The notes below the pieces were generated by a model. The model was not told where the DNA came from. It did no database searches and saw only the letters and a list, made by a program, of their open reading frames with translations. A stretch of 64,000 bases of DNA from IMG/VR virus record IMGVR_UViG_3300029305_005280; one strand, given 5' to 3'. This stretch comes from a virus (Duplodnaviria; Caudoviricetes). Shown in pieces: positions 245 through 9,148 of the stretch (positions are counted from its first letter, which is position 1; every line of letters begins with the position of its first letter). A program made the position numbers and the translations under genes.

Positions 245-331
245 GGGTGGATATACCGTAAGTGGTAGCGGGGCAGACTGTAAATCTGCTGCCTAACGGC
301 TCGGGTGGTTCGACTCCATCTCCACCCACCA
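245..331 (+). tRNA. tRNA-Tyr(GTA)
   Basis: Cloverleaf, anticodon arm GCAGA-CTGTAAA-TCTGC, long variable arm, GGTTCGACTCC, encoded CCA. Confidence 0.97.
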
Positions 332-552
332 GAGGGAAGTTGACTTTTTGTATTTCAAACACACCTACTAATAGTGGTAGTAAATACTATAATATATTGT
401 CCTGGCAGACAAAAACCAGTGAAATAAAGAATTGCTGCGGGGTATAAGTGCGTGGTAGTGACCGTCGCCTCAACAATGCTTAAGGATATCGTCAAATGCC
501 GATTATTGGGATATAGTAACGAATAAATCTGGGAATAGTTACATAGATTTAT

Positions 553-627
553 CCAGATGTAAGTCAATGGTAGACGGCGAAGTTTGGGACTTCGTAGCTG
601 GGGGTTCGAATCCCTCCATCTGGACCA
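553..627 (+). tRNA. tRNA-Pro(TGG)
   Basis: CGAAG-TTTGGGA-CTTCG anticodon arm, T-loop TTCGAAT, CCA end. Confidence 0.96.
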
Positions 628-634
628 TTTATTT

Positions 635-709
635 GCCCTCATAGTTCAATGGATAGAACAAGGGTCTTCTAAACCCTAAATCTAAGTTCGATTCTTAGTG
701 AGGGTGCCA
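635..709 (+). tRNA. tRNA-Arg(TCT)
   Basis: AGGGT-CTTCTAA-ACCCT anticodon arm, T-loop TTCGATT, CCA end. Confidence 0.96.
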
Positions 710-712
710 CTA

Positions 713-905
713 GACGGATTGAGGTCTTGCATAGGTTAGAAAGTAAAAAGGTACGACACTTTTCCTATAAACCAGTGACTCACACTGTAGAGACTACTAA
801 GAGCTGTGAGGAAAGTCCGATGTGCTCACAGACGCTCAGACAGTAGGCAGCGACGAATAGGCCTAGTGAAGATGATAACTTTGATAATCAAATAAAAATC
901 CGGTC
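713..905 (+). ncRNA. Unidentified structured RNA (~190 nt) in the tRNA operon
   Basis: Closing helix GACGGATT/AATCCGGTC; long internal hairpin CTACT..GAGC-TGTGAG/CTCACA-GAC-GCTC..AGTAG; contains GAGGAAAGTCC; no ORF. Confidence 0.4.
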
Positions 906-1027
906 CAAAGTAAGCATAATATACTAAGTGGCATACATGAGATATTGGTTGGGCAGTGCTTCGCCTATTTAATCAAAAGCTAGTGTATGTACCCCCAGTT
1001 TTCCGGATGGGTCTGGGTAGTTTATCT

Positions 1028-1118
1028 GGAGGAGTACCCAAGTGGTTGAAGGGTCCGGTCTTGAAAACCGGTAGGTCGGGCAACCGGCGCGGGAGTTCGA
1101 ATCTCCCCTCCTCCGCCA
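1028..1118 (+). tRNA. tRNA-Ser(TGA)
   Basis: CCGGT-CTTGAAA-ACCGG, long variable arm, CCA end. Confidence 0.97.
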
Positions 1119-1228
1119 AATCTAAAACACTTGTGGTTCAAGGTTCATGAGTATTCCGTTCGATTCGGAAGTAATAAATGGATGATGTAACAATCTCTCA
1201 TGTTTTTAGTGGTTCAATTCCACTTTAT

Positions 1229-1318
1229 GGAGCGATGGGTGAGAGGTTGAAACCACCTCCCTGCTAAGGAGGCGAGGTCTACGGGCCTCCGACAGTTCGA
1301 ATCTGTCTCGCTCCGCCA
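1229..1318 (+). tRNA. tRNA-Ser(GCT)
   Basis: CCTCC-CTGCTAA-GGAGG, long variable arm, CCA end. Confidence 0.97.
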
Positions 1319-1323
1319 TATAT

Positions 1324-1412
1324 GGTAGCCGTGGTGGAATTGGTAGACACGCTGGATTGTGGCTCCAGTACTCTTTTGAGTTGTGAGAGTTCAAGTCTCT
1401 CCGGTTACCCCA
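1324..1412 (+). tRNA. tRNA-His(GTG) with atypical long variable arm
   Basis: CTGGA-TTGTGGC-TCCAG; encoded G-1 opposite C73; Leu-like D arm GTGGTGGAATTGGTAGACAC; variable hairpin ACTC-TTTT-GAGT. Confidence 0.9.
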
Positions 1413-1441
1413 GATAAAATATAATAACTGAGGTGTTTACG

Positions 1442-1558
1442 ATGCTAAGAGATAAACTTTACTATGAAAATAGAATTAGTTTGCTTTCTAATAGAGCAAA
1501 AGAGAATCAAAGAATCATTGCGAAACTAAAAAGAAAGCTAAGACAACTTGAGGCATAA
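1442..1558 (+). CDS. Small basic protein (38 aa), not in the ORF track
   Basis: GAGGTG SD; MLRDKLYYENRISLLSNRAKENQRIIAKLKRKLRQLEA. Confidence 0.6.
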   Translation: MLRDKLYYENRISLLSNRAKENQRIIAKLKRKLRQLEA

Positions 1559-1565
1559 TAACAGA

Positions 1566-2375
1566 ATGAATCATAATAAATATGGTTGTAAACCTCCTCA
1601 AATTGATGTAAGAGACTACAAACTTGCAAAAACCGCAGTTGACGCCTCTTCCTTACCTGTCGCATATGTTCCTATGCAATTACCAGCAGTTAAAAATCAA
1701 AAAAGTGTTTCTTCTTGTGTAGCACATACAACAAGTTCGATTCTTGAATTCCATGATATTGAAAATGGTAATACATTATCAACTAACTTCATATATGGTA
1801 TTCAAAAACAATTTTGTGGACATGAAGGCTCAGGAATGTATTTGAGAGATGCTTGTAAAATTGTTAAAGAATATGGCGATATGCTCGAAAGTGACTGCTC
1901 TGGTAACGACGAAATACCTAAGTGCTGGGAGATTGCACAGGATGCCCTTAATAACGATAAATGCAAAAAGAATGCACAGGCGTTTAAAGTAAAATCTTAT
2001 TTCAATTGTTCCAGTAATAATGACATTAAAAGAGCAATCTATGAATACGGGCCTGTTTTATGTTCTATTAAATGGTATGATACGTTCAAAGTGGATAAAG
2101 ATGGTGCTCTTGAAGGAGCTCAAAAAGGTGACTATGGTTATCATGCAGTAATGATTTATGGATGGAATTCAACAGGATTTTTGTGTCAAAATAGTTGGGG
2201 CAAAAATTGGGGCGTAAATGGTAGATTTGTTCTTCCTTATAGTATCCCAGTTGCGGAAGCAAAGGGCTTAGTCGACGAAGAAACATCAAATATTATTATT
2301 CCTAAAAGAAATAAATTTTTAGATTTTATTTATAAGATTGTAAATGCCATTGTTAACTTTTTCAAAGGTAAGTAG
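1566..2375 (+). CDS. Papain-like cysteine peptidase (C1 family)
   Basis: NQ..VSSCVAH catalytic Cys, YHAVMIYGW His, QNSWG Asn motif; C-terminal amphipathic helix. Confidence 0.9.
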   Translation: MNHNKYGCKPPQIDVRDYKLAKTAVDASSLPVAYVPMQLPAVKNQKSVSSCVAHTTSSILEFHDIENGNTLSTNFIYGIQKQFCGHEGSGMYLRDACKIVKEYGDMLESDCSGNDEIPKCWEIAQDALNNDKCKKNAQAFKVKSYFNCSSNNDIKRAIYEYGPVLCSIKWYDTFKVDKDGALEGAQKGDYGYHAVMIYGWNSTGFLCQNSWGKNWGVNGRFVLPYSIPVAEAKGLVDEETSNIIIPKRNKFLDFIYKIVNAIVNFFKGK

Positions 2376-2385
2376 GTGCTAATCA

Positions 2386-3111
2386 ATGAGTGTTGATACA
2401 TCATTAAAAACCGAAGTATTTGAAAAAGGTGTAAGAAAGAATTCTTTCATTCAGGATAATAACAAGTGGTATAATACAACGGGTGTTGGTGGATATTCAA
2501 CATGTATTGTTGGTAGCCCATCAAGAAGTGGTGCAAATGTTCTTTGCAATTGTGTAGGGCTTGCTAATGGGGCATTTAATGAAACATATGTTAAATGTAA
2601 GCAAACATTAGATTCATCCTTTGTACCTAAACAATATTATGCTTTTACTTCCAATGGTAATACGACAATAACAAGAGCAAAATCATTAGGACTAGAAACT
2701 ATTGACCCTTCAGGTATTCCTCCTCTTGGTGGTTTAATCTCTTGGGGTGGAGGAGCCAATCACGTTGCATATATAGCTGATGTTATTGATAATGACACTA
2801 TAGTTATAGTACAGGCAGGTTATGACACGCCAGTATGGTCTCAGAGAAATACCGCTGATACAGGTTGGGTATGTGATGCAAGAACTATAAAAAGAGGTTC
2901 TTCGAATCTGTGGGCATATCAGAATTCAGTTCCAAGTGGCACTGTTTGTCAAGGATTTGTTGTTAATCCTGCAGTAGCTGATGCAATAGAAGCAATATAT
3001 GGAGTTAGACTTGGTAATCAATTATATTCTGCTCATATATGGAAAGATGGTAAATGGAATAAAACAATTCCTCACCTGTGGTCAAATGGTAAATGGAATA
3101 AAACAAATTAA
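2386..3111 (+). CDS. CHAP-domain cell-wall hydrolase
   Basis: NCVG Cys and NHVAYI His motifs with GGLISW between them. Confidence 0.75.
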   Translation: MSVDTSLKTEVFEKGVRKNSFIQDNNKWYNTTGVGGYSTCIVGSPSRSGANVLCNCVGLANGAFNETYVKCKQTLDSSFVPKQYYAFTSNGNTTITRAKSLGLETIDPSGIPPLGGLISWGGGANHVAYIADVIDNDTIVIVQAGYDTPVWSQRNTADTGWVCDARTIKRGSSNLWAYQNSVPSGTVCQGFVVNPAVADAIEAIYGVRLGNQLYSAHIWKDGKWNKTIPHLWSNGKWNKTN

Positions 3112-3268
3112 AAATTATTAAAGATTTAGTTGAATCTTCTCAATTTACATAATATAATTATTGTATAATATAAAGTAGCATAAAACACAAGATTGCAAAA
3201 AAACTTGTTTGTGAGAGTTTTAAACCATCGGTGCCTGCACTGGTAGTATTTTAAATCACAACCTATAT

Positions 3269-3344
3269 TCCCACTTAGCTCAGTCGGTAGAGCACTCGGC
3301 TGTTAACCAAGCGGTCGCAGGTTCGAGCCCTGCAGTGGGAGCCA
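3269..3344 (+). tRNA. tRNA-Asn(GTT)
   Basis: Loop CTGTTAA, D arm TAGCTCAGTCGGTAGAGCA, CCA; one C-A mismatch in the anticodon stem. Confidence 0.95.
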
Positions 3345-3479
3345 CAGGTCCACTGTTAGGTGTTTTCATACGACCTGTACAAATAAACATTTTAGAAAAC
3401 ATGTGGTGCTTAAAGGTATGGTAAGACATATGTGCTTACGAAGCGTTTCGACCAATGTCCGACTCGAAACGAATCATTT

Positions 3480-3554
3480 GCTGGCGTGGCTCAATGGTAG
3501 AGCAGCTGATTTGTAATCAGCAGGTTGCAGGTTCGACTCCTGTCGCCAGCTCCA
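3480..3554 (+). tRNA. tRNA-Thr(TGT)
   Basis: GCTGA-TTTGTAA-TCAGC, CCA end. Confidence 0.97.
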
Positions 3555-3558
3555 ATAT

Positions 3559-3634
3559 GGGGCCATAACTCAACTGGGAGAGTGCCTGCTTTGCAAGCAG
3601 GATGTTAGGGGTTCAAGTCCCCTTGGTTCCACCA
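3559..3634 (+). tRNA. tRNA-Ala(TGC)
   Basis: CCTGC-TTTGCAA-GCAGG, G3:U70 pair, CCA end. Confidence 0.97.
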
Positions 3635-3706
3635 ATAGTTTCATAGAGTTCTAATAAACTATGTGCTTGTCACTTTAAGAAGTGAGTGGGTATAAAGTCC
3701 CACAAA

Positions 3707-4365
3707 TTCGTACCTTGAAAGATGTATACAATATAACTCAGTGATAAACATAAGGTACGCTCCTTATGCTGAGAGGAGCCCTAATTCTTCGGAAACGATT
3801 CCACGACAGAGAAACGTAAGAGGATACTCGGAAAAATGTCGTTACTTTGAGTAGTGATATTCAAAGTTGCAGAAGTAAACTTCAATGGAATGGGCTCTGT
3901 GCTGAGGTTATTGCAAGTAATGGTAAAGTGGGCATCGCACTCGTAATAGAGGCTATCGTTAATACCGATAGCTGAATCCAAGTTAGGATTTTAGCTGGTG
4001 ACTGTAATCAAACCTTGTGAAATACCACCAAGAGTGTTGGTCGTGATGTTCTTGAAAAAGAAAGTATAAGGTGCTCATCCAGTTTCCGAGTAGCCGAAGA
4101 CCAGTGGTAATTGAAGAAACAAATAATTTAGAAAGTAAGATTATCAAATTCTTCTGAATAGACGGTGAAAGGTGCAGGTAATCAGTCCTGCTATAGCTTG
4201 TGTGGTCCAGGGTCCCGCCGTTAACGGGAAGCCCAGACTTCGTGGCAAGAAGTTAGGGGTCGCTACCCGAAGCTCAGACTTGTCATCTATATGACCGAAT
4301 ATACTTGAAAATAATTATCAGTAATCCGAAGGGATAGTTGTTGTATATATCTTTAAAGGTACGAA
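3707..4365 (+). ncRNA. Large ornate ncRNA, ROOL-like candidate (GOLLD not excluded)
   Basis: 659 nt with no credible ORF between tRNA-Ala and tRNA-fMet; 25-bp terminal helix TTCGTACCTTGAAAGATGTATACAA / TTGTATATATCTTTAAAGGTACGAA; GC-richer than flanks with many hairpins. Confidence 0.65.
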
Positions 4366-4405
4366 AAGTGTGCCGTTCGCTTGCGGCTAATCAAGCGAGT
4401 TATAT

Positions 4406-4481
4406 CGCGGAGTGATGCAGTGGTCAGCAATTTGGGCTCATAACCCAAAAGTCAGTGGTTCGAATCCACTCTCCGCAACCA
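4406..4481 (+). tRNA. tRNA-fMet(CAT)
   Basis: C1:A72 mismatch, GGG/CCC at the anticodon stem base, loop CTCATAA, CCA. Confidence 0.95.
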
Positions 4482-4572
4482 GCTGTTTAGGTTTTACATT
4501 TGTTGTACAGTTCAGCGTGTCAAACTACAAACAAATGCGGTTTATAGGCATTGTCCGATAACAATGACTTAT

Positions 4573-4647
4573 GGTCTCTTGGTGAAGTGGTTATCATATG
4601 TGCCTGTCACGCACAAGTCACGAGTTCAATTCTCGTAGGGACCGCCA
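4573..4647 (+). tRNA. tRNA-Asp(GTC)
   Basis: TGTGC-CTGTCAC-GCACA, CCA end. Confidence 0.96.
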
Positions 4648-5769: not shown

Positions 5770-5832
5770 GTTGAAATAATCAACATAATATATTATAATG
5801 ATATATGAAGAAAGACAAAGGAGTGTTCTTAG

Positions 5833-7482
5833 ATGAGTAAATTATCTAAAGCAGTTGAAGCAATGCACGAAGATGTAGTGCTTCGTAAAGATGAAACAGA
5901 AGTTAACTTTATGGGTGGTGACTCCTACAAGTTAAATCCGCTTGAAACCTTGAAGATGATTAGTGCTTCTTCCATCTTTGGTGAACCTTCTTACTACCGT
6001 GACGGCAGAAGTGCAAAGAAAACACTTTACAAGGTAGACAGGCTTGTAAAAGATTGGCTCATTATTCCTGACCGCTATGTAGGTAAAAATACAGAGCAAA
6101 TCATGGAGTCTGCAATTGATGCAGCACTGGAGTATGATTTTGGCGCGACGCTTGAGTGGGCAACTACTTTGCGTAATGATTTCTTTATGCGTCTTAATCC
6201 TCAAGTCATTATGGTAAGAGCAGCTATGCATCCTAACCGTAAAGAATGGACCGAGGCTAATCCTGGCAAATTCAATGAATATAATCAGATGGTTATGAAG
6301 CGTGCAGATGAGCCTATGTCTCAGATGGCTTACTATCTGTATCTTAATAAAGGTAAGAAGAATAAGATTCCTTCTGTTATTAAACGCTCTTGGGCTGACA
6401 ATCTGAGCAAGCTGAATCGTTACAAGGTTGCTAAATACAAGAATCATGAAATTGGAATGATTAACGGTGTACGCCTTTGCCACGCAAATTCCAAAGTTCT
6501 TGATGAACTGATGACCAGTGGCACCGTTGAAGTTTCTGAGGATTCTAAAACTTGGGAAAATCTTCGTTCAGAAGGAAAGACCTGGGAAGAAATCTTTGAT
6601 ACTGTAGATATGGGCCATATGGCATTACTGAGAAATATCAGAGGCGTTTTCTCCGAATCTGACAACAAGGACCTTTTTGTAAGATACATGACTAAACTTA
6701 AATCAACTGTAAAAGATGGAAAGCAATTTCCTTTCAGATACTGGTCTGCAATCCAAGCTGTTCAAGGCAGTAACTGTAACTTTAAACCCTTAATCATTGA
6801 TGCCCTTGAAGAATGTATGGATATTGCGGTTGATAACTATCCCAAGCTAAGAGGCAAAACAATGTGCCTATCAGATAACTCTGGCTCTGCTTGGGGAGCT
6901 GTAACAACTGAGTACGGCTCTGTGACTGTTGCAAATATTGATAATCTTTCCTCTGTTATTACTGCAGCTTGTTCCGATGAAGGATATGTTGGTAAGTTTG
7001 GTGACAGATTGATTACCCATCCTATCAGCAAACGCAGAGGTATTCTGTCTCAAGCAGAAGCAATTACTCGTGATAGAGACCGAGATGTTGGCGGTGGTAC
7101 TGAAGGCGGTATCTGGGAATTCTTCAGAAGTGCTATTGATAAGAAAGAACACTGGGACAATATCTTTATCTATTCTGATATGCAAGCAGGACATGGTGGT
7201 CTGTATGGCACAAGTTCTCAATACAATGACTATCGTCGTAGAGGATATGATATTGGAAACCATATCAATGTGTTCAAACTTGTACAGGATTATAGAAAAA
7301 TTGTTAATCCCAAAGTAAATGTATTCTCTATTCAAACAGCAGGTTATACTAATAACTTGATGCCTGAGATGGCATACAGAACTGCAATTTTGAGTGGTTG
7401 GACTGGCAAGGAAGCTTCTTTTGCGGAAGAGTACATTCGTCAGTGGGATGAAATTGAAACAAAAAATTCTAAAAAGAATTAG
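5833..7482 (+). CDS. Ro60/Rsr-like TROVE-domain RNA-binding protein with C-terminal vWA domain
   Basis: 549 aa; N-terminal NFMGG..Y and FGEPSYY; MGHMALLRNIR; QFPFRY; vWA MIDAS-like CLSDNSGS, GGGT, IYSDMQ; own promoter at 5768. Confidence 0.9.
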   Translation: MSKLSKAVEAMHEDVVLRKDETEVNFMGGDSYKLNPLETLKMISASSIFGEPSYYRDGRSAKKTLYKVDRLVKDWLIIPDRYVGKNTEQIMESAIDAALEYDFGATLEWATTLRNDFFMRLNPQVIMVRAAMHPNRKEWTEANPGKFNEYNQMVMKRADEPMSQMAYYLYLNKGKKNKIPSVIKRSWADNLSKLNRYKVAKYKNHEIGMINGVRLCHANSKVLDELMTSGTVEVSEDSKTWENLRSEGKTWEEIFDTVDMGHMALLRNIRGVFSESDNKDLFVRYMTKLKSTVKDGKQFPFRYWSAIQAVQGSNCNFKPLIIDALEECMDIAVDNYPKLRGKTMCLSDNSGSAWGAVTTEYGSVTVANIDNLSSVITAACSDEGYVGKFGDRLITHPISKRRGILSQAEAITRDRDRDVGGGTEGGIWEFFRSAIDKKEHWDNIFIYSDMQAGHGGLYGTSSQYNDYRRRGYDIGNHINVFKLVQDYRKIVNPKVNVFSIQTAGYTNNLMPEMAYRTAILSGWTGKEASFAEEYIRQWDEIETKNSKKN

Positions 7483-7487
7483 TGATT

Positions 7488-7519
7488 TAGTTGATAAATG
7501 AAGCATAAAGCTTTATAAT
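7488..7519 (+). promoter_or_regulatory. Promoter driving the Y-RNA-like array
   Basis: TAGTTGATA-N17-TATAAT immediately after the Ro60 stop codon. Confidence 0.85.
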
Positions 7520-7551
7520 ATAAATGTAGAAAGATAATTAAATATTGACAA

Positions 7552-7658
7552 CTGCTTGATGCAGAGACAGATGCTTACTTCATTGGTTGAAAATTTGTCT
7601 TGAAAACGAATACAGCAGGTTCGAGTCCTGTATTAGCATCTTCATTATTCTCAAGCAG
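7552..7658 (+). ncRNA. Y-RNA-like unit 1 (insert: Ser-UGA anticodon arm plus T arm)
   Basis: Stem CTGCTTGA/TCAAGCAG, TGCAG, AGATGC/GCATCT, TTACTTC; ATTTGT-CTTGAAA-ACGAAT; GCAGG-TTCGAGT-CCTGT. Confidence 0.8.
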
Positions 7659-7680
7659 GACCTTCCTTTATGGAATAGTA

Positions 7681-7782
7681 TTTCTGATGCAGTAAATCAA
7701 GTTACTTCAGGCTTTGACTTTTAATCAAAATACCTAATAGACTTAAAATCTATCAATACACTTGATTTGATATTCTCAGAAA
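7681..7782 (+). ncRNA. Y-RNA-like unit 2 (insert: two anticodon stem-loops, Lys-UUU and Leu-UAA)
   Basis: Stem TTTCTGA/TCAGAAA, TGCAG, AAATCAAG/CTTGATTT, TTACTTC; TTTGA-CTTTTAA-TCAAA and ATAGA-CTTAAAA-TCTAT. Confidence 0.8.
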
Positions 7783-7803
7783 TTATTGTATAAAATATAT
7801 AAC

Positions 7804-7971
7804 ATGTGTGAAGCAGGGAGATTAGTTACTTCGAAAGGTTTGGTCTGTTAAACCCGAAGTCGTTGGTTCGAATCCAACCATTGTTAGTAACGGCGAGTGA
7901 AAGCAATGTAACTCAGCTGGAAAGAGTGCGTGTAAATTTAGAAATTTACTAATTTCATTATTCTCACACAT
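7804..7971 (+). ncRNA. Y-RNA-like unit 3 (YrlA-type circularly permuted tRNA with an Asn-GUU loop)
   Basis: Stem ATGTGTGA/TCACACAT, AGCAG, AGATTAG/CTAATTT, TTACTTC; order: anticodon arm (GGT-CTGTTAA-ACC), T arm GTTGG-TTCGAAT-CCAAC, closed acceptor CATTGTT/AGCAATG, D arm ACTC-AGCTGGAAA-GAGT. Confidence 0.85.
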
Positions 7972-7986
7972 CTATTTAAAAGTAAT

Positions 7987-8136
7987 ATTTACGATGCAGT
8001 CATATCAGTTACTTCGTTGCATTGGGTGCCTGGTGTCATTGGTTCGAGTCCAATATTCCCGCCCATTTATGCGGGAATTAGCTCAGTCGGTAGAGCACAG
8101 TAGAAATTATTAGCTGATATATTTATTCTCGTAAAT
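7987..8136 (+). ncRNA. Y-RNA-like unit 4 (YrlA-type circularly permuted tRNA with a Pro-UGG-like loop)
   Basis: Stem ATTTACGA/TCGTAAAT, TGCAG, ATATCAG/CTGATAT, TTACTTC; T arm ATTGG-TTCGAGT-CCAAT, acceptor ATTCCCGC/GCGGGAAT, D arm TAGCTCAGTCGGTAGAGCA. Confidence 0.87.
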
Positions 8137-8153
8137 TTTTAATTTGATGTTAT

Positions 8154-8274
8154 AGCTGAAGCAGACTACAGAGTTACTTCAAATACATAGTACTAATGTT
8201 ATATTATATAAAAGAACAAAATATGTTAGCCGTGAGCTTACATAGATAAACACTCTGTAACTTAATTCTCAGCT
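8154..8274 (+). ncRNA. Y-RNA-like unit 5 (AU-rich insert, no clear tRNA arm)
   Basis: Stem AGCTGA/TCAGCT, AGCAG, TACAGAG/CTCTGTA, TTACTTC, AATTCTC. Confidence 0.75.
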
Positions 8275-8280
8275 TTATTT

Positions 8281-8357
8281 GCGGGATTGGTGTTTAATGG
8301 TTAGCATCTCAGTCTTCCAAACTGATGGTGAGGGTTCGAGTCCCTTATCCCGCTCCA
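8281..8357 (+). tRNA. tRNA-Gly(TCC)
   Basis: TCAGT-CTTCCAA-ACTGA, GCGGGAT/ATCCCGC acceptor stem, TCCA end. Confidence 0.97.
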
Positions 8358-8593
8358 GCCTCCATTCCGCTCTTGCGGGATAAAATATAGAGTATAAGTA
8401 GCGCTTATTTGCGAGCAGTTTATGCTCTATAAAAGTTAAAAATTTCGCCCTTGTTGTGGTGACAGGACAAATAAACAATATTGTGTCATGTTTTCATGAT
8501 TCCTCCTTCCTTTCCATATAATAATGCACCTCCTTTTAATATATCGTTGACACAAGGCGGATTAAACATACATAGACAACTTGAGGATAAGAA

Positions 8594-9148
8594 ATGCAAA
8601 AAGTAATTGTAACAGATATGGATGATGTTCTTGTTAATTTACTAGAACATTGGCTTGAATATCTTAATATTCGATATAATTGTAGGGTAGAATGTGAAGA
8701 TGTAGTTGAATGGGATATGTCAAAAGCATATCCAATGCTGACACCCGAACAACTTTATGGTGCTCTTAGTGATGAAGAACTGTGGAAAACAGTTACTCCT
8801 AAAGAAGATGCAATCAAATATCTTACACAATTGCATGACGAGGGTTATAAAATACTTGTTGCTACCGCAGCAAGCTACAATACGATAAAAACAAAACTTG
8901 TTAATGCACTATTTCCTTATTTCAAGTTTTTAACATATAAAGACATAATCATGATTCATGATAAGCATCTATTAAAATGTGATATTATTGTTGATGATTA
9001 TCATGAAAATCTTAAAGGTAGCGATGCAATAAAGATACTCGTTACCGCACCTTATAATCAACATTGTGACAAGATGATATATGATTTCCGTGTTAATGGT
9101 TGGAAAGAAATATATCAAATTATTCATGAATTGGAGAATGTACATTGA
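8594..9148 (+). CDS. 5'(3')-deoxyribonucleotidase (NT5C, HAD family)
   Basis: DMDDVL HAD motif I, VATA motif II, K..L..DIIVDD. Confidence 0.85.
   Translation: MQKVIVTDMDDVLVNLLEHWLEYLNIRYNCRVECEDVVEWDMSKAYPMLTPEQLYGALSDEELWKTVTPKEDAIKYLTQLHDEGYKILVATAASYNTIKTKLVNALFPYFKFLTYKDIIMIHDKHLLKCDIIVDDYHENLKGSDAIKILVTAPYNQHCDKMIYDFRVNGWKEIYQIIHELENVH

What the first reader, a model, noticed from the sequence alone, without database searches (positions are those of the whole stretch)
5833..8274. Phage Ro60 followed by a five-member array of Y-like RNAs: one scaffold, swappable tRNA-derived inserts
Seen: after the TROVE/vWA gene and its own promoter (7488) lie five units (7552-7658, 7681-7782, 7804-7971, 7987-8136, 8154-8274). 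Each reads [6-8 bp terminal stem ending GA]-(T/A)GCAG-N2-3-[6-8 bp stem]-TTACTTC-[insert]-[stem']-..ATTC-[TC stem']. Stem sequences differ between units but always pair (covariation), while the unpaired motifs are nearly invariant. Established: Ro60/Rsr binds the bulged terminal helix of Y RNAs, and bacterial YrlA RNAs encoded near rsr carry a permuted tRNA-like domain. Inference: this is a Ro60-RNP family in which one protein is loaded with five RNAs carrying different effector domains. The putative Ro box (GA(U/A)GCAG/AUUCUC) differs from the GNCGAAN(0-1)G box of described YrlA. I am not aware of a described five-copy array with varied inserts.
Basis: partly seen in the sequence, partly recalled or inferred. 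Interest (0 to 1): 0.95.

Follow-up and report, generated by a model that had tools for sequence, protein, structure and literature searches.

The report
Phage Ro60 gene with five Y-like RNAs
A 156-kb phage encodes a Ro60-type ring protein followed by five small RNA genes that share one conserved two-helix "handle" but carry different pieces of tRNA, a widespread, apparently undescribed variant of the known Ro60/Y-RNA particle.

Summary
The ORF at 5833-7482 has the Ro60 fold: HEAT ring plus vWA domain with a DxSxS MIDAS motif. Its best structural matches are Thermus phage phiLo Ro60, Xenopus Ro60 and Deinococcus Rsr.

The ORF-free stretch 7552-8274 holds five units with one scaffold: an 8-bp closing helix ending GA/UC, an internal loop (WGCRG opposite UAUUC), a 6-7-bp second helix, an invariant UUACUUC, then a variable insert.

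A covariance model finds only these five copies in the genome. It finds more than 200 others beside TROVE genes, on the TROVE strand with one exception. These lie in phage contigs, Bacillus phage G (seven units) and Firmicutes assemblies. All 15 base pairs covary.

Units 1-4 carry tRNA-derived modules. Units 3 and 4 are YrlA-like permuted tRNAs. Unit 1 is an acceptor-less tRNA body. Unit 2 is two bare anticodon arms (Lys-UUU, Leu-UAA). Unit 5 is not tRNA-derived.

Ro60 plus Y RNAs in phages is known, so this is a new variant of a known kind, not a new system. Ro60 binding, the position of the Ro box and the decoy function remain untested. Arrays of 2-7 units are normal for the family. This scan has met the same handle family before on other DNA.

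The parts
5771..5799 (+). Promoter-like site upstream of the Ro60 gene (TTGAAA-17-TATAAT)
   Evidence: Consensus scan, 11 of 12 matches. This is a pattern match only.
5833..7482 (+). Ro60/TROVE + vWA protein gene (549 aa)
   Evidence: Pfam TROVE 27.4 bits, cut-off 23. phrog_850 'RNA-binding protein' E 4e-42. AF2 model pLDDT 82, pTM 0.80. Foldseek top hits: phiLo Ro60 9KOP E 5.8e-16, Xenopus Ro60 1YVP, human Ro60, Deinococcus Rsr 2NVO. MIDAS DNSGS at residues 348-352.
7491..7519 (+). Promoter-like site for the RNA array (TTGATA-17-TATAAT)
   Evidence: 11 of 12 matches. L001 has TTGAAA-17-TATAAT in the same place. Other relatives have only 14-25 nt between the TROVE stop and unit 1, which implies read-through from the Ro60 gene there.
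7552..7658 (+). Unit 1: scaffold plus an acceptor-less tRNA body (D-arm-like, Ser-UGA anticodon arm 7593-7611, T arm 7615-7631)
   Evidence: R2 51.6 bits, E 8.5e-9. Rfam tRNA 26.3 bits, below the 29 cut-off. 17-nt and 11-nt words identical to the phage's tRNA-Leu(UAG) T arm and tRNA-Ser(UGA) anticodon arm. There are 3 nt before the D stem and 4 nt after the T stem, and no free CCA end, so it is not a functional tRNA.
7681..7782 (+). Unit 2: scaffold plus two bare anticodon stem-loops (Lys-UUU 7713-7729, Leu-UAA 7737-7753)
   Evidence: R2 65.5 bits, E 5.9e-12. 13-nt and 11-nt words identical to the phage's tRNA-Lys and tRNA-Leu(UAA) anticodon arms: 0 of 5000 and 12 of 5000 shuffles reach this. 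The orthologue in L001 keeps both loops with a changed second stem. The orthologue in L002 carries Arg-UCU and Gly-UCC loops instead.
7804..7971 (+). Unit 3: scaffold plus YrlA-like permuted tRNA (T arm 7862-7878, closed 7-bp acceptor helix, D arm), with a degenerate Asn-type loop CUGUUAA at 7845-7851
   Evidence: R2 60.2 bits. Rfam YrlA 28.2 bits, gathering score 69. MFE fold. Relatives L002:7029, L006:4444 and L007:4555 have a clean 5-bp anticodon arm at this place. Here the 7-nt loop competes with a more stable alternative pairing.
7987..8136 (+). Unit 4: scaffold plus YrlA-like permuted tRNA (T arm 8038-8054, closed acceptor helix 8056-8077, D arm 8078-8098), with a weak Pro-like loop AUUGGGU
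   Evidence: R2 57.7 bits. Rfam YrlA 32.8 bits, E 4e-5, gathering score 69. The D arm matches the phage's tRNA-Asn over 21 nt, 0 of 2000 shuffles. The CCA in the acceptor loop is not conserved in orthologues.
8154..8274 (+). Unit 5: scaffold plus an AT-rich 72-nt insert of unknown structure
   Evidence: R2 61.7 bits, E 4e-11. No significant word shared with any phage tRNA: 8 nt, reached by 1599 of 2000 shuffles. Orthologues conserve only the scaffold.
8281..8357 (+). tRNA-Gly(UCC), 6 nt after unit 5; probably the end of the same transcript
   Evidence: ARAGORN. Rfam tRNA 39.3 bits. In L001 a tRNA-like sequence with an Asn-type anticodon loop follows the array.

Best explanation
This is a phage Ro60/Y-RNA module. 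The ring protein (5833-7482) is followed by five Y-like RNA genes.

Transcription (inferred): the array is transcribed from the promoter-like site at 7491-7519 and/or by read-through from the Ro60 gene. It would form one precursor together with tRNA-Gly and be cut into RNAs of about 100-170 nt.

Structure (shown): each RNA closes its 5' and 3' ends into a conserved two-helix handle. The handle is GA/UC-terminated helix, WGCRG/UAUUC internal loop, second helix, then UUACUUC.

Binding (inferred): the handle docks on Ro60.

Cargo (shown): the handle presents a variable module made of tRNA parts. These are a whole permuted tRNA as in YrlA (units 3 and 4), an acceptor-less tRNA body (unit 1), or bare anticodon arms (unit 2).

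Function (inferred): the particle presents tRNA look-alikes to tRNA-recognising host factors. It would act either as a decoy or sponge for tRNA-targeting nucleases, or as an adaptor that tethers Ro60 to RNA-processing or decay enzymes, helping the phage keep translation running.

My odds: about 0.8 that these are Ro60 partner RNAs, about 0.3 that the cargo acts as a decoy for anticodon nucleases.
For: - Ro60 fold and MIDAS motif.
- Scaffold covariation: 15 of 15 pairs, 92% paired against 57% in shuffles. The motifs G-C, U.C.UC and C are invariant across 119 units.
- Every R1/R2 hit in the TROVE-centred viral loci, at least 119 units in 46 loci, lies on the TROVE strand, most of them adjacent to the gene.
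- Reverse test: of 21 scaffold-positive loci found by DNA pattern alone, 16 have TROVE in the same record and the other 5 are fragments that are 3-38% complete.
- The same pairing occurs in Bacillus phage G (7 units), weakly in crAss001, and in 15 of 15 Firmicutes assemblies tested.
- Units 3 and 4 have YrlA architecture.
- Units 1-4 share 13-21-nt words with the phage's own tRNAs, reached by at most 1 of 2000 shuffles.
- CU-NNN-AA hairpin loops number 25 in 108 units, against 0.42 in shuffles. Lys-UUU is the commonest.
- Anticodon identity is swapped between orthologous units.
- The genome also carries about 23 tRNA genes and an Rnl2-type RNA ligase.
- Literature: bacterial and phage Y RNAs lie beside Ro60 and mimic tRNA (PMC4201824). 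phiLo Ro60 binds two adjacent Y-like RNAs and host PNPase (PMC12135203). The Ro60-like gp130 of phage Bas63 counters the Ppl defence (10.1101/2024.10.10.617714).
Against: - No binding, expression or processing data exist.
- The established Ro60-box motifs (GNCGAAN0-1G, GGUCCGA) are absent.
- Rfam YrlA is far below its gathering score everywhere, even in phage G.
- Some units lie several kb from TROVE (L010, L012, phage G 9016-9082).
- Against the decoy reading: the anticodon arms copy the phage's own tRNAs. If those tRNAs are nuclease-resistant variants, copies of them would be poor decoys.
- Many family members carry only a short A-rich loop and no tRNA part.
- The anticodon-type loops of units 3 and 4 in this window are weak.
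- Unit 5 has no recognisable cargo.
Confidence: 0.7

Rival explanations
1. A classical RYPER-type machine. The Y-like RNAs tether phage Ro60 to host PNPase or another exoribonuclease, to degrade or trim structured RNAs (host RNAs, or the phage's own tRNA and ROOL precursors). The tRNA-like parts would serve only for stability, modification or enzyme contact, not as decoys.
For: This is the only mechanism shown experimentally for bacterial Rsr with Y RNA, and the phiLo phage Ro60/Yrl/PNPase complex supports it (PMC4201824, PMC12135203). All units, including the minimal ones, keep a single-stranded UUACUUC and an A-rich tract before the inner helix 3' strand. That could be an S1/KH-binding tether. 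The module sits inside a tRNA and structured-RNA island with a ROOL RNA.
Against: It does not explain why cargo is so often a precise anticodon arm with CU-NNN-AA loops (25 against 0.42 expected). It does not explain why anticodon identity is exchanged between orthologous units while the hairpin is kept. No PNPase interaction is testable here.
Confidence: 0.3
2. The units are Ro60-independent: a family of tRNA-operon RNAs (pseudo-tRNAs, processing scaffolds or stand-alone decoys) that merely travel with the tRNA island in which the TROVE gene also sits.
For: Units are embedded in tRNA operons, with a tRNA directly after the array. Some units lie kilobases from TROVE. Five scaffold-positive contig fragments show no TROVE gene.
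Against: Nearly all of the more than 200 units are on the TROVE strand, most of them directly adjacent. This holds across very different genomes, from jumbo phages to Bacillus and Acetatifactor assemblies. The only near-complete record among the doubtful ones does encode TROVE. The window's long tRNA array at 245-4647 holds no unit.
Confidence: 0.08
3. Some units are precursors of working tRNAs or tRNA halves. Permuted or interrupted tRNA genes would be matured by RNase P and RNase Z, and possibly ligated.
For: ARAGORN calls unit 1 tRNA-Ser. Unit 4 has C-CCA-UUUAU-G in its acceptor loop, which resembles a tRNA-tRNA junction. M. smegmatis YrlA is cut by RNase P and receives CCA (PMC4201824). 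The genome encodes an Rnl2-type ligase.
Against: Unit 1 scores below the Rfam tRNA cut-off, has extra nucleotides at both acceptor junctions and has no 3' CCA. The CCA of unit 4 is not kept in orthologues. The phage already encodes standard tRNAs for the same anticodons. Units 2 and 5 cannot form a tRNA.
Confidence: 0.05

Closest known systems
Bacterial and phage YrlA/YrlB Y RNAs with Rsr/Ro60 (Chen et al. 2014, PMC4201824; Rfam RF02553)
   Same: The RNAs are encoded next to a Ro60 orthologue on the same strand. The 5' and 3' ends pair into a stem with an internal loop. There are several different RNAs per genome, at least one with a permuted tRNA-like domain (T arm, closed acceptor, D arm), as in units 3 and 4. 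According to PMC12135203, citing that paper, Y RNA-like RNAs were reported in Bacillus phage G, which carries this same handle.
   Different: There is no GNCGAAN0-1G box. The conserved motifs are WGCRG/UAUUC and UUACUUC instead. Scores are 28-37 bits against a gathering score of 69. Arrays hold up to seven units. Cargo types are not described for YrlA: intact anticodon arms, acceptor-less tRNA bodies, tandem bare anticodon arms and minimal A-rich loops.
Thermus phage phiLo Ro60 with Yrl1/Yrl2 (PMC12135203; PDB 9KOP, 9L5Y)
   Same: A phage-encoded Ro60 ring with adjacent Y-like RNA genes. It is the best structural match of the window's protein (E 5.8e-16, TM 0.64/0.74).
   Different: Sequence identity is only 18%. 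phiLo has two RNAs upstream, recognised by a CGAA motif, and no tRNA-derived cargo is reported. Here there are five RNAs downstream with a different handle.
Metazoan Ro60 with Y RNAs
   Same: A ring protein of HEAT repeats plus a vWA domain. Several small RNAs share a conserved terminal bulged stem and differ in the distal loop module.
   Different: A different conserved helix sequence (GGUCCGA with a bulged C), RNA polymerase III genes, and no tRNA-part cargo.
Phage-encoded tRNAs that neutralise tRNA-cleaving defences (for example T5 tRNA-Lys against PARIS, PMC11464382)
   Same: These are phage RNAs carrying Lys-UUU and other anticodon arms, in genomes with large tRNA islands. This is a possible functional analogue if the cargo deals with anticodon nucleases.
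   Different: Those are working tRNAs that replace cleaved ones. The RNAs here cannot decode and sit on a Ro60-type handle. The analogy is an inference only.
Ro60-like gp130 of Escherichia phage Bas63 (preprint 10.1101/2024.10.10.617714)
   Same: A phage Ro60-like gene directly beside tRNA-type genes. It is reported to counter a host defence (Ppl), which shows that a phage Ro60 can be an anti-defence factor.
   Different: It is a distant protein, its partner RNAs are not defined in the paper, and it was not examined here.

Membership tests
Ro60 / TROVE proteins | TROVE domain detectable by profile | tested here: met
   Pfam PF05731 27.4 bits, cut-off 23, E 2.5e-6, covering residues 237-312 only. 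phrog_850 E 3.9e-42 over residues 17-526.
Ro60 / TROVE proteins | HEAT-repeat ring followed by a vWA domain | tested here: met
   AF2 pLDDT 82.3, pTM 0.80. The 13 best PDB matches are all Ro60/Rsr/TROVE-domain structures (9KOP, 9L5Y, 1YVP, 2I91, 9NEN, 2NVO and others), E 6e-16 to 1e-8.
Ro60 / TROVE proteins | MIDAS motif DxSxS in the vWA domain | tested here: met
   DNSGS at residues 348-352, invariant in 24 homologues, together with T423 and D449.
Ro60 / TROVE proteins | Binds Y RNA on its outer surface | not testable with these tools
   Needs EMSA, co-immunoprecipitation or a structure.
Y RNAs (functional class) | Encoded close to the Ro60 gene, on the same strand | tested here: met
   The five units start 70 nt after the stop codon. 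More than 200 units in over 60 TROVE loci lie on the TROVE strand, with a single exception.
Y RNAs (functional class) | 5' and 3' ends pair into a stem interrupted by a conserved internal loop, with a variable distal module | tested here: met
   MFE folds and covariation in 15 of 15 pairs.
Y RNAs (functional class) | Known Ro60-binding sequence (GNCGAAN0-1G in bacteria, GGUCCGA in animals) | tested here: not met
   Neither motif occurs in any of the five units. The family conserves other motifs.
Y RNAs (functional class) | Physically associated with Ro60 in cells | not testable with these tools
No RIP data are available.
YrlA (Rfam RF02553) | Score at or above the gathering threshold of 69 bits | tested here: not met
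   Unit 4 scores 32.8 bits and unit 3 scores 28.2 bits; units 1, 2 and 5 give no hit. The phage G unit scores 36.2 bits and the L002 units 37.0 and 36.6 bits.
YrlA (Rfam RF02553) | Permuted tRNA-like domain: T arm, acceptor helix closed by a loop, D arm | tested here: met
   Met for units 3 and 4 only. Not met for units 1, 2 and 5.
tRNA | Cloverleaf with a 7-bp acceptor stem and a free 3' end, scoring above the Rfam cut-off | tested here: not met
   Unit 1 scores 26.3 bits, below 29. Extra nucleotides at both acceptor junctions, and the 3' side continues into the handle.

The most novel reading that the evidence does not exclude
The handle is a Ro60-docking adaptor on which phages, and perhaps their Firmicutes hosts, mount exchangeable anticodon arms and tRNA bodies. 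The result would be a programmable set of protein-protected decoys that soak up or misdirect anticodon nucleases and other tRNA-targeting immune effectors. Anticodon identity (Lys, Ser, Leu, Asn, Arg, Gly, Tyr, Thr, Pro) would be swapped as the host's arsenal changes.
Probability: 0.25. Interest if true: 0.85.

Novelty: new variant of a known kind. Interest (0 to 1): 0.62.

Why it matters
What Ro60/Y-RNA particles do in bacteria and phages is still largely open, and only a few Y RNAs have been studied.

A large, sharply defined family would give the field three things:
- a clean consensus for finding the Ro60 contact;
- a natural series of cargo variants to test;
- a culturable entry point, Bacillus phage G on B. 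megaterium.

The family has a strict handle, a variable cargo made of tRNA parts, and the same gene neighbour from jumbo phages to gut Clostridia.

If the anticodon-arm cargo does engage tRNA-targeting defences, it would link Ro60 biology to the current picture of tRNA as a battleground between phages and bacteria. It would also add an RNA-decoy strategy beside the known one of phage-encoded replacement tRNAs.

Tried and rejected
- MAFFT alignment of short-insert units (A1) and of mixed unit types (A2) misaligned the 3' half or shifted UUACUUC by one base. I used a hand-checked seed (A3) and model-based realignment instead.
- Sequence search of PDB with the protein found nothing. Only the fold search identified Ro60.
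- Nucleotide search of cultured phages found only phage G fragments and tRNA-Gly look-alikes.
- The reverse-complement control for anticodon-type loops is uninformative, because AT-rich loops conform on both strands. I used shuffles instead.
- The 14-base DNA pattern scan returned mostly chance matches: 59 of 80 loci had no model hit.
- I looked for extra tertiary pairs in the handle by mutual information and found none beyond the 15 pairs.
- Unit 5 orthologues share no insert structure.
- I rejected a K-turn reading of the internal loop: the 3' strand has no GA.
- I rejected 'CCA junction capture' in unit 4 as a conserved feature: orthologues lack the CCA.
- No RtcB or T4 Rnl1 was found in the genome. 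The Rnl1 control search rang nowhere, so that result is not informative.
- R2 found nothing beside the TROVE genes of Nitratidesulfovibrio phage SRB7757 or phage csAssE-Sib.
- The Chen 2014 supplements are not held, so I could not check which phage G element they listed.
Full report
**What is there.** The window is the minus strand of a single-contig, 97%-complete, 156-kb phage genome. The region lies at the end of a tRNA island.
- There are 11 tRNA genes at 245-4647, and about 12 more upstream of the window.
- A ROOL RNA lies at 3713-4356 (284 bits).
- The ORF at 5833-7482 is followed by a 790-nt stretch without any ORF of 50 aa or more. This stretch contains the five units. tRNA-Gly starts 6 nt after unit 5.

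**The protein.**
- Pfam TROVE is just above its cut-off (27.4 against 23 bits). PHROGs gives a full-length match to the 'RNA-binding protein' family of Bacillus phage G gp540.
- Sequence search of PDB found nothing.
- An AlphaFold2 model built on 24 homologues (pLDDT 82, pTM 0.80) matches, as its 13 best PDB hits, only Ro60/Rsr/TROVE-domain structures. These include Thermus phage phiLo Ro60 (E 5.8e-16), Xenopus and human Ro60, and Deinococcus Rsr.
- The vWA MIDAS motif DNSGS is at residues 348-352 and is invariant among homologues.
- It is a Ro60 homologue.

**The five units.** Reading the sequence, folding each unit alone and a mechanical parse all give the same architecture:
- a closing helix of 6-8 bp ending GA/UC;
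- WGCAG plus 2-4 nt;
- an inner helix of 6-7 bp;
- TTACTTC;
- an insert of 52-116 nt;
- the inner helix 3' strand;
- N3-5 ATTC;
- TC plus the closing helix 3' strand.

The variable helix positions are almost unrelated between units, so these are not recent duplicates.

**A family, tied to TROVE.**
- The TROVE protein has 53 relatives in viral contigs and thousands in metagenomes.
- A covariance model seeded on eight units (R1) found 119 units in 46 loci, all on the TROVE strand.
- The rebuilt model R2 found the five window units at E 6e-12 to 8.5e-9 and nothing else in the 64-kb window. The whole-genome scan listed only four of these same units and nothing elsewhere.
- R2 found 125 units in 34 further loci, again all on the TROVE strand. 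Arrays hold 2-7 units, downstream of TROVE in close relatives and upstream in more distant ones.
- On 108 distinct sequences, 92.3% of cells pair (57% in shuffles, 31-43% with slid partners). All 15 pairs show compensatory changes.
- A mutual-information scan without any structure returns the model's pairs as its top 13.
- Unpaired positions G-C of WGCRG, U, C, U, C of UUACUUC, and C of UAUUC are invariant or nearly so in 119 units.
- Caveat: the alignment was fitted to the model.

**Reverse test.** I scanned the viral collection with a 14-base handle pattern.
- 59 of 80 loci were chance matches with no model hit.
- Of the 21 with a model hit, 11 have TROVE in the stored stretch.
- 4 lie on contigs already known to carry TROVE.
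- 1 is a 96%-complete 258-kb genome that does encode TROVE, with two units just after it.
- 5 are fragments that are 3-38% complete.
- I found no complete genome with the handle but without TROVE.

**Breadth.**
- Bacillus phage G, a cultured jumbo phage, has seven units, five of them in the 1-kb gap upstream of its TROVE gene gp540 and a sixth about 2 kb upstream.
- crAss001 has one clear and three weak matches in the ORF-free gap after its TROVE gene.
- Fifteen of fifteen Firmicutes assemblies tested carry units beside the TROVE homologue. They include the isolates Acetatifactor muris DSM 23669 and Bacillus sp. Brlt_9, plus Ruminococcus, Lachnospiraceae and others. Whether these are prophages was not determined.
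- The hosts of the window's phage are probably rumen or gut Clostridia (inference).

**Relation to known Y RNAs.**
- Rfam 15 gives only sub-threshold YrlA matches: unit 4 at 32.8 bits and unit 3 at 28.2 bits, against a gathering score of 69. The same holds in phage G and L002. The matches are carried by the T arm, closed acceptor helix and D arm.
- So units 3 and 4 have the YrlA architecture described by Chen et al. 2014 (PMC4201824), who reported YrlA-like RNAs near Ro60 in 254 bacteria and 22 phages. According to PMC12135203, these included Bacillus phage G.
- The bacterial Ro box GNCGAAN0-1G is absent from all five units.
- In the YrlA alignment, the box position corresponds to the end of the inner helix plus UUACUU (CgaAUGCuu against CAGUUACUU).
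- That alignment is weak, and both motifs are equally conserved. The Ro60 contact is therefore undecided.

**The cargo.**
- Units 1-4 share exact words of 17, 13, 13 and 21 nt with the phage's own tRNAs. At most 1 of 2000 shuffles reaches this. Unit 5 shares nothing significant.
- Unit 1 is a tRNA body (D-arm-like, Ser-UGA anticodon arm, T arm) whose acceptor stem is replaced by the handle. It falls below the tRNA threshold and has extra junction nucleotides, so it cannot be a working tRNA.
- Unit 2 is two bare anticodon arms. They are identical over 13 nt to the phage's tRNA-Lys(UUU) arm and over 11 nt to its tRNA-Leu(UAA) arm.
- Across the family, hairpins with a CU-NNN-AA 7-nt loop (T loops excluded) number 25 in 108 units. 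Shuffles give 0.42 ± 0.66, with a maximum of 4 in 500.
- Lys-UUU is the commonest, then Ser-UGA and Asn-GUU.
- Different stems carry the same loop.
- The orthologue of unit 2 keeps Lys and Leu loops in L001 but carries Arg-UCU and Gly-UCC loops in L002, on the same handle.
- The anticodon-type loops of units 3 and 4 in this window are degenerate, although relatives of unit 3 have clean Asn or Thr arms.
- Many distant members carry only an 18-25-nt A-rich loop.
- These leads came from earlier first-reader notes. I tested them here.

**How it probably works.**
- Shown: a Ro60 gene; five co-oriented structured RNA genes of one covarying family; strict genomic linkage of that family to Ro60 genes; and tRNA-derived cargo in four of the five.
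- Inferred: transcription from 7491-7519 (a similar site exists in L001, but other relatives leave no room, so read-through from the Ro60 gene is likely there); processing into single units; docking of the handle on Ro60; and a function towards tRNA-recognising factors.
- Supporting context: a phage Ro60 binds adjacent Y-like RNAs and host PNPase (PMC12135203). A Ro60-like phage protein counters a host defence (preprint 10.1101/2024.10.10.617714). tRNAs are frequent targets of bacterial immunity, with phage tRNAs as countermeasures (PMC11464382). This genome also encodes an Rnl2-type RNA ligase.
- The decoy idea is attractive but untested. It is weakened by the fact that the arms copy the phage's own tRNAs, and that many members lack tRNA parts.

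**Novelty.**
- Phage Ro60 with adjacent Y RNAs, several Y RNAs per genome, and tRNA mimicry are all published.
- I could not find the following in Rfam or in the searchable literature: this handle, its arrays, and cargo consisting of intact anticodon arms or acceptor-less tRNA bodies.
- This scan has already met the same or sister handle families beside Ro60 genes on other DNA, so the window is one more member, not a singular case.
- Verdict: a real feature and a new variant of a known kind. The biochemical claims remain open.

Noticed in passing
window 3713-4356 (+): A full-length ROOL RNA (RF03087, 284 bits, E 9e-65) sits between tRNA-Ala and tRNA-Met in the same tRNA island as the Ro60 module.
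   Followed up: partly
window 1325-1412 (+): The tRNA-His(GUG) is 88 nt long and has a long variable arm (class II shape), which is unusual for tRNA-His. Rfam tRNA gives 50.7 bits.
   Followed up: no
G000:C1:64232-64303 and 67243-67317 (upstream of the window): There are two tRNA genes with anticodon UAU (Ile, or unmodified AUA reader). One lacks an encoded CCA end. The phage encodes about 23 tRNAs in all.
   Followed up: no
G000:C1:75401-75925 (same strand as window +, about 11.6 kb before the window start): An Rnl2-type RNA ligase domain (PF09414, 59.9 bits) lies in a 388-aa ORF. No RtcB was found. This suggests tRNA-repair capacity in the same genome.
   Followed up: partly
window 8594-9148 (+): An NT5C-type 5'(3')-deoxyribonucleotidase/HAD phosphatase gene lies directly after the array (Pfam E 1.4e-30). 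It has a faint similarity to a PHROG polynucleotide kinase family (E 9e-4).
   Followed up: no
L181 (Bacteroides phage crAss001) 5000-5900: The 900-nt ORF-free gap after TROVE gene gp96 holds UUACUUC-bearing elements. One is a tRNA-like gene whose D-arm half and T-arm half are separated by about 110 nt containing GAGTTACTTC. It looks like a non-permuted way of joining a tRNA body to the handle.
   Followed up: partly
L002 7533-8200: In this relative the seven-unit array is followed by a GC-richer structured-looking stretch instead of a tRNA. It gives a sub-threshold match to drum RNA (RF02958, 28.7 bits, gathering score 43).
   Followed up: no
L223, L257 (Acetatifactor muris DSM 23669; Bacillus sp. 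Brlt_9): Isolate genomes carry TROVE homologues (54-57% identity) with 1-4 handle units upstream, on large contigs. Prophage or chromosomal origin was not determined.
   Followed up: partly
window 8387-8441 (+): An imperfect hairpin (TATAGAGTATAA...TTTATGCTCTATA) followed by an A/T-rich tail lies after tRNA-Gly. It may be the end of the array transcript. The terminator scan did not call it.
   Followed up: no
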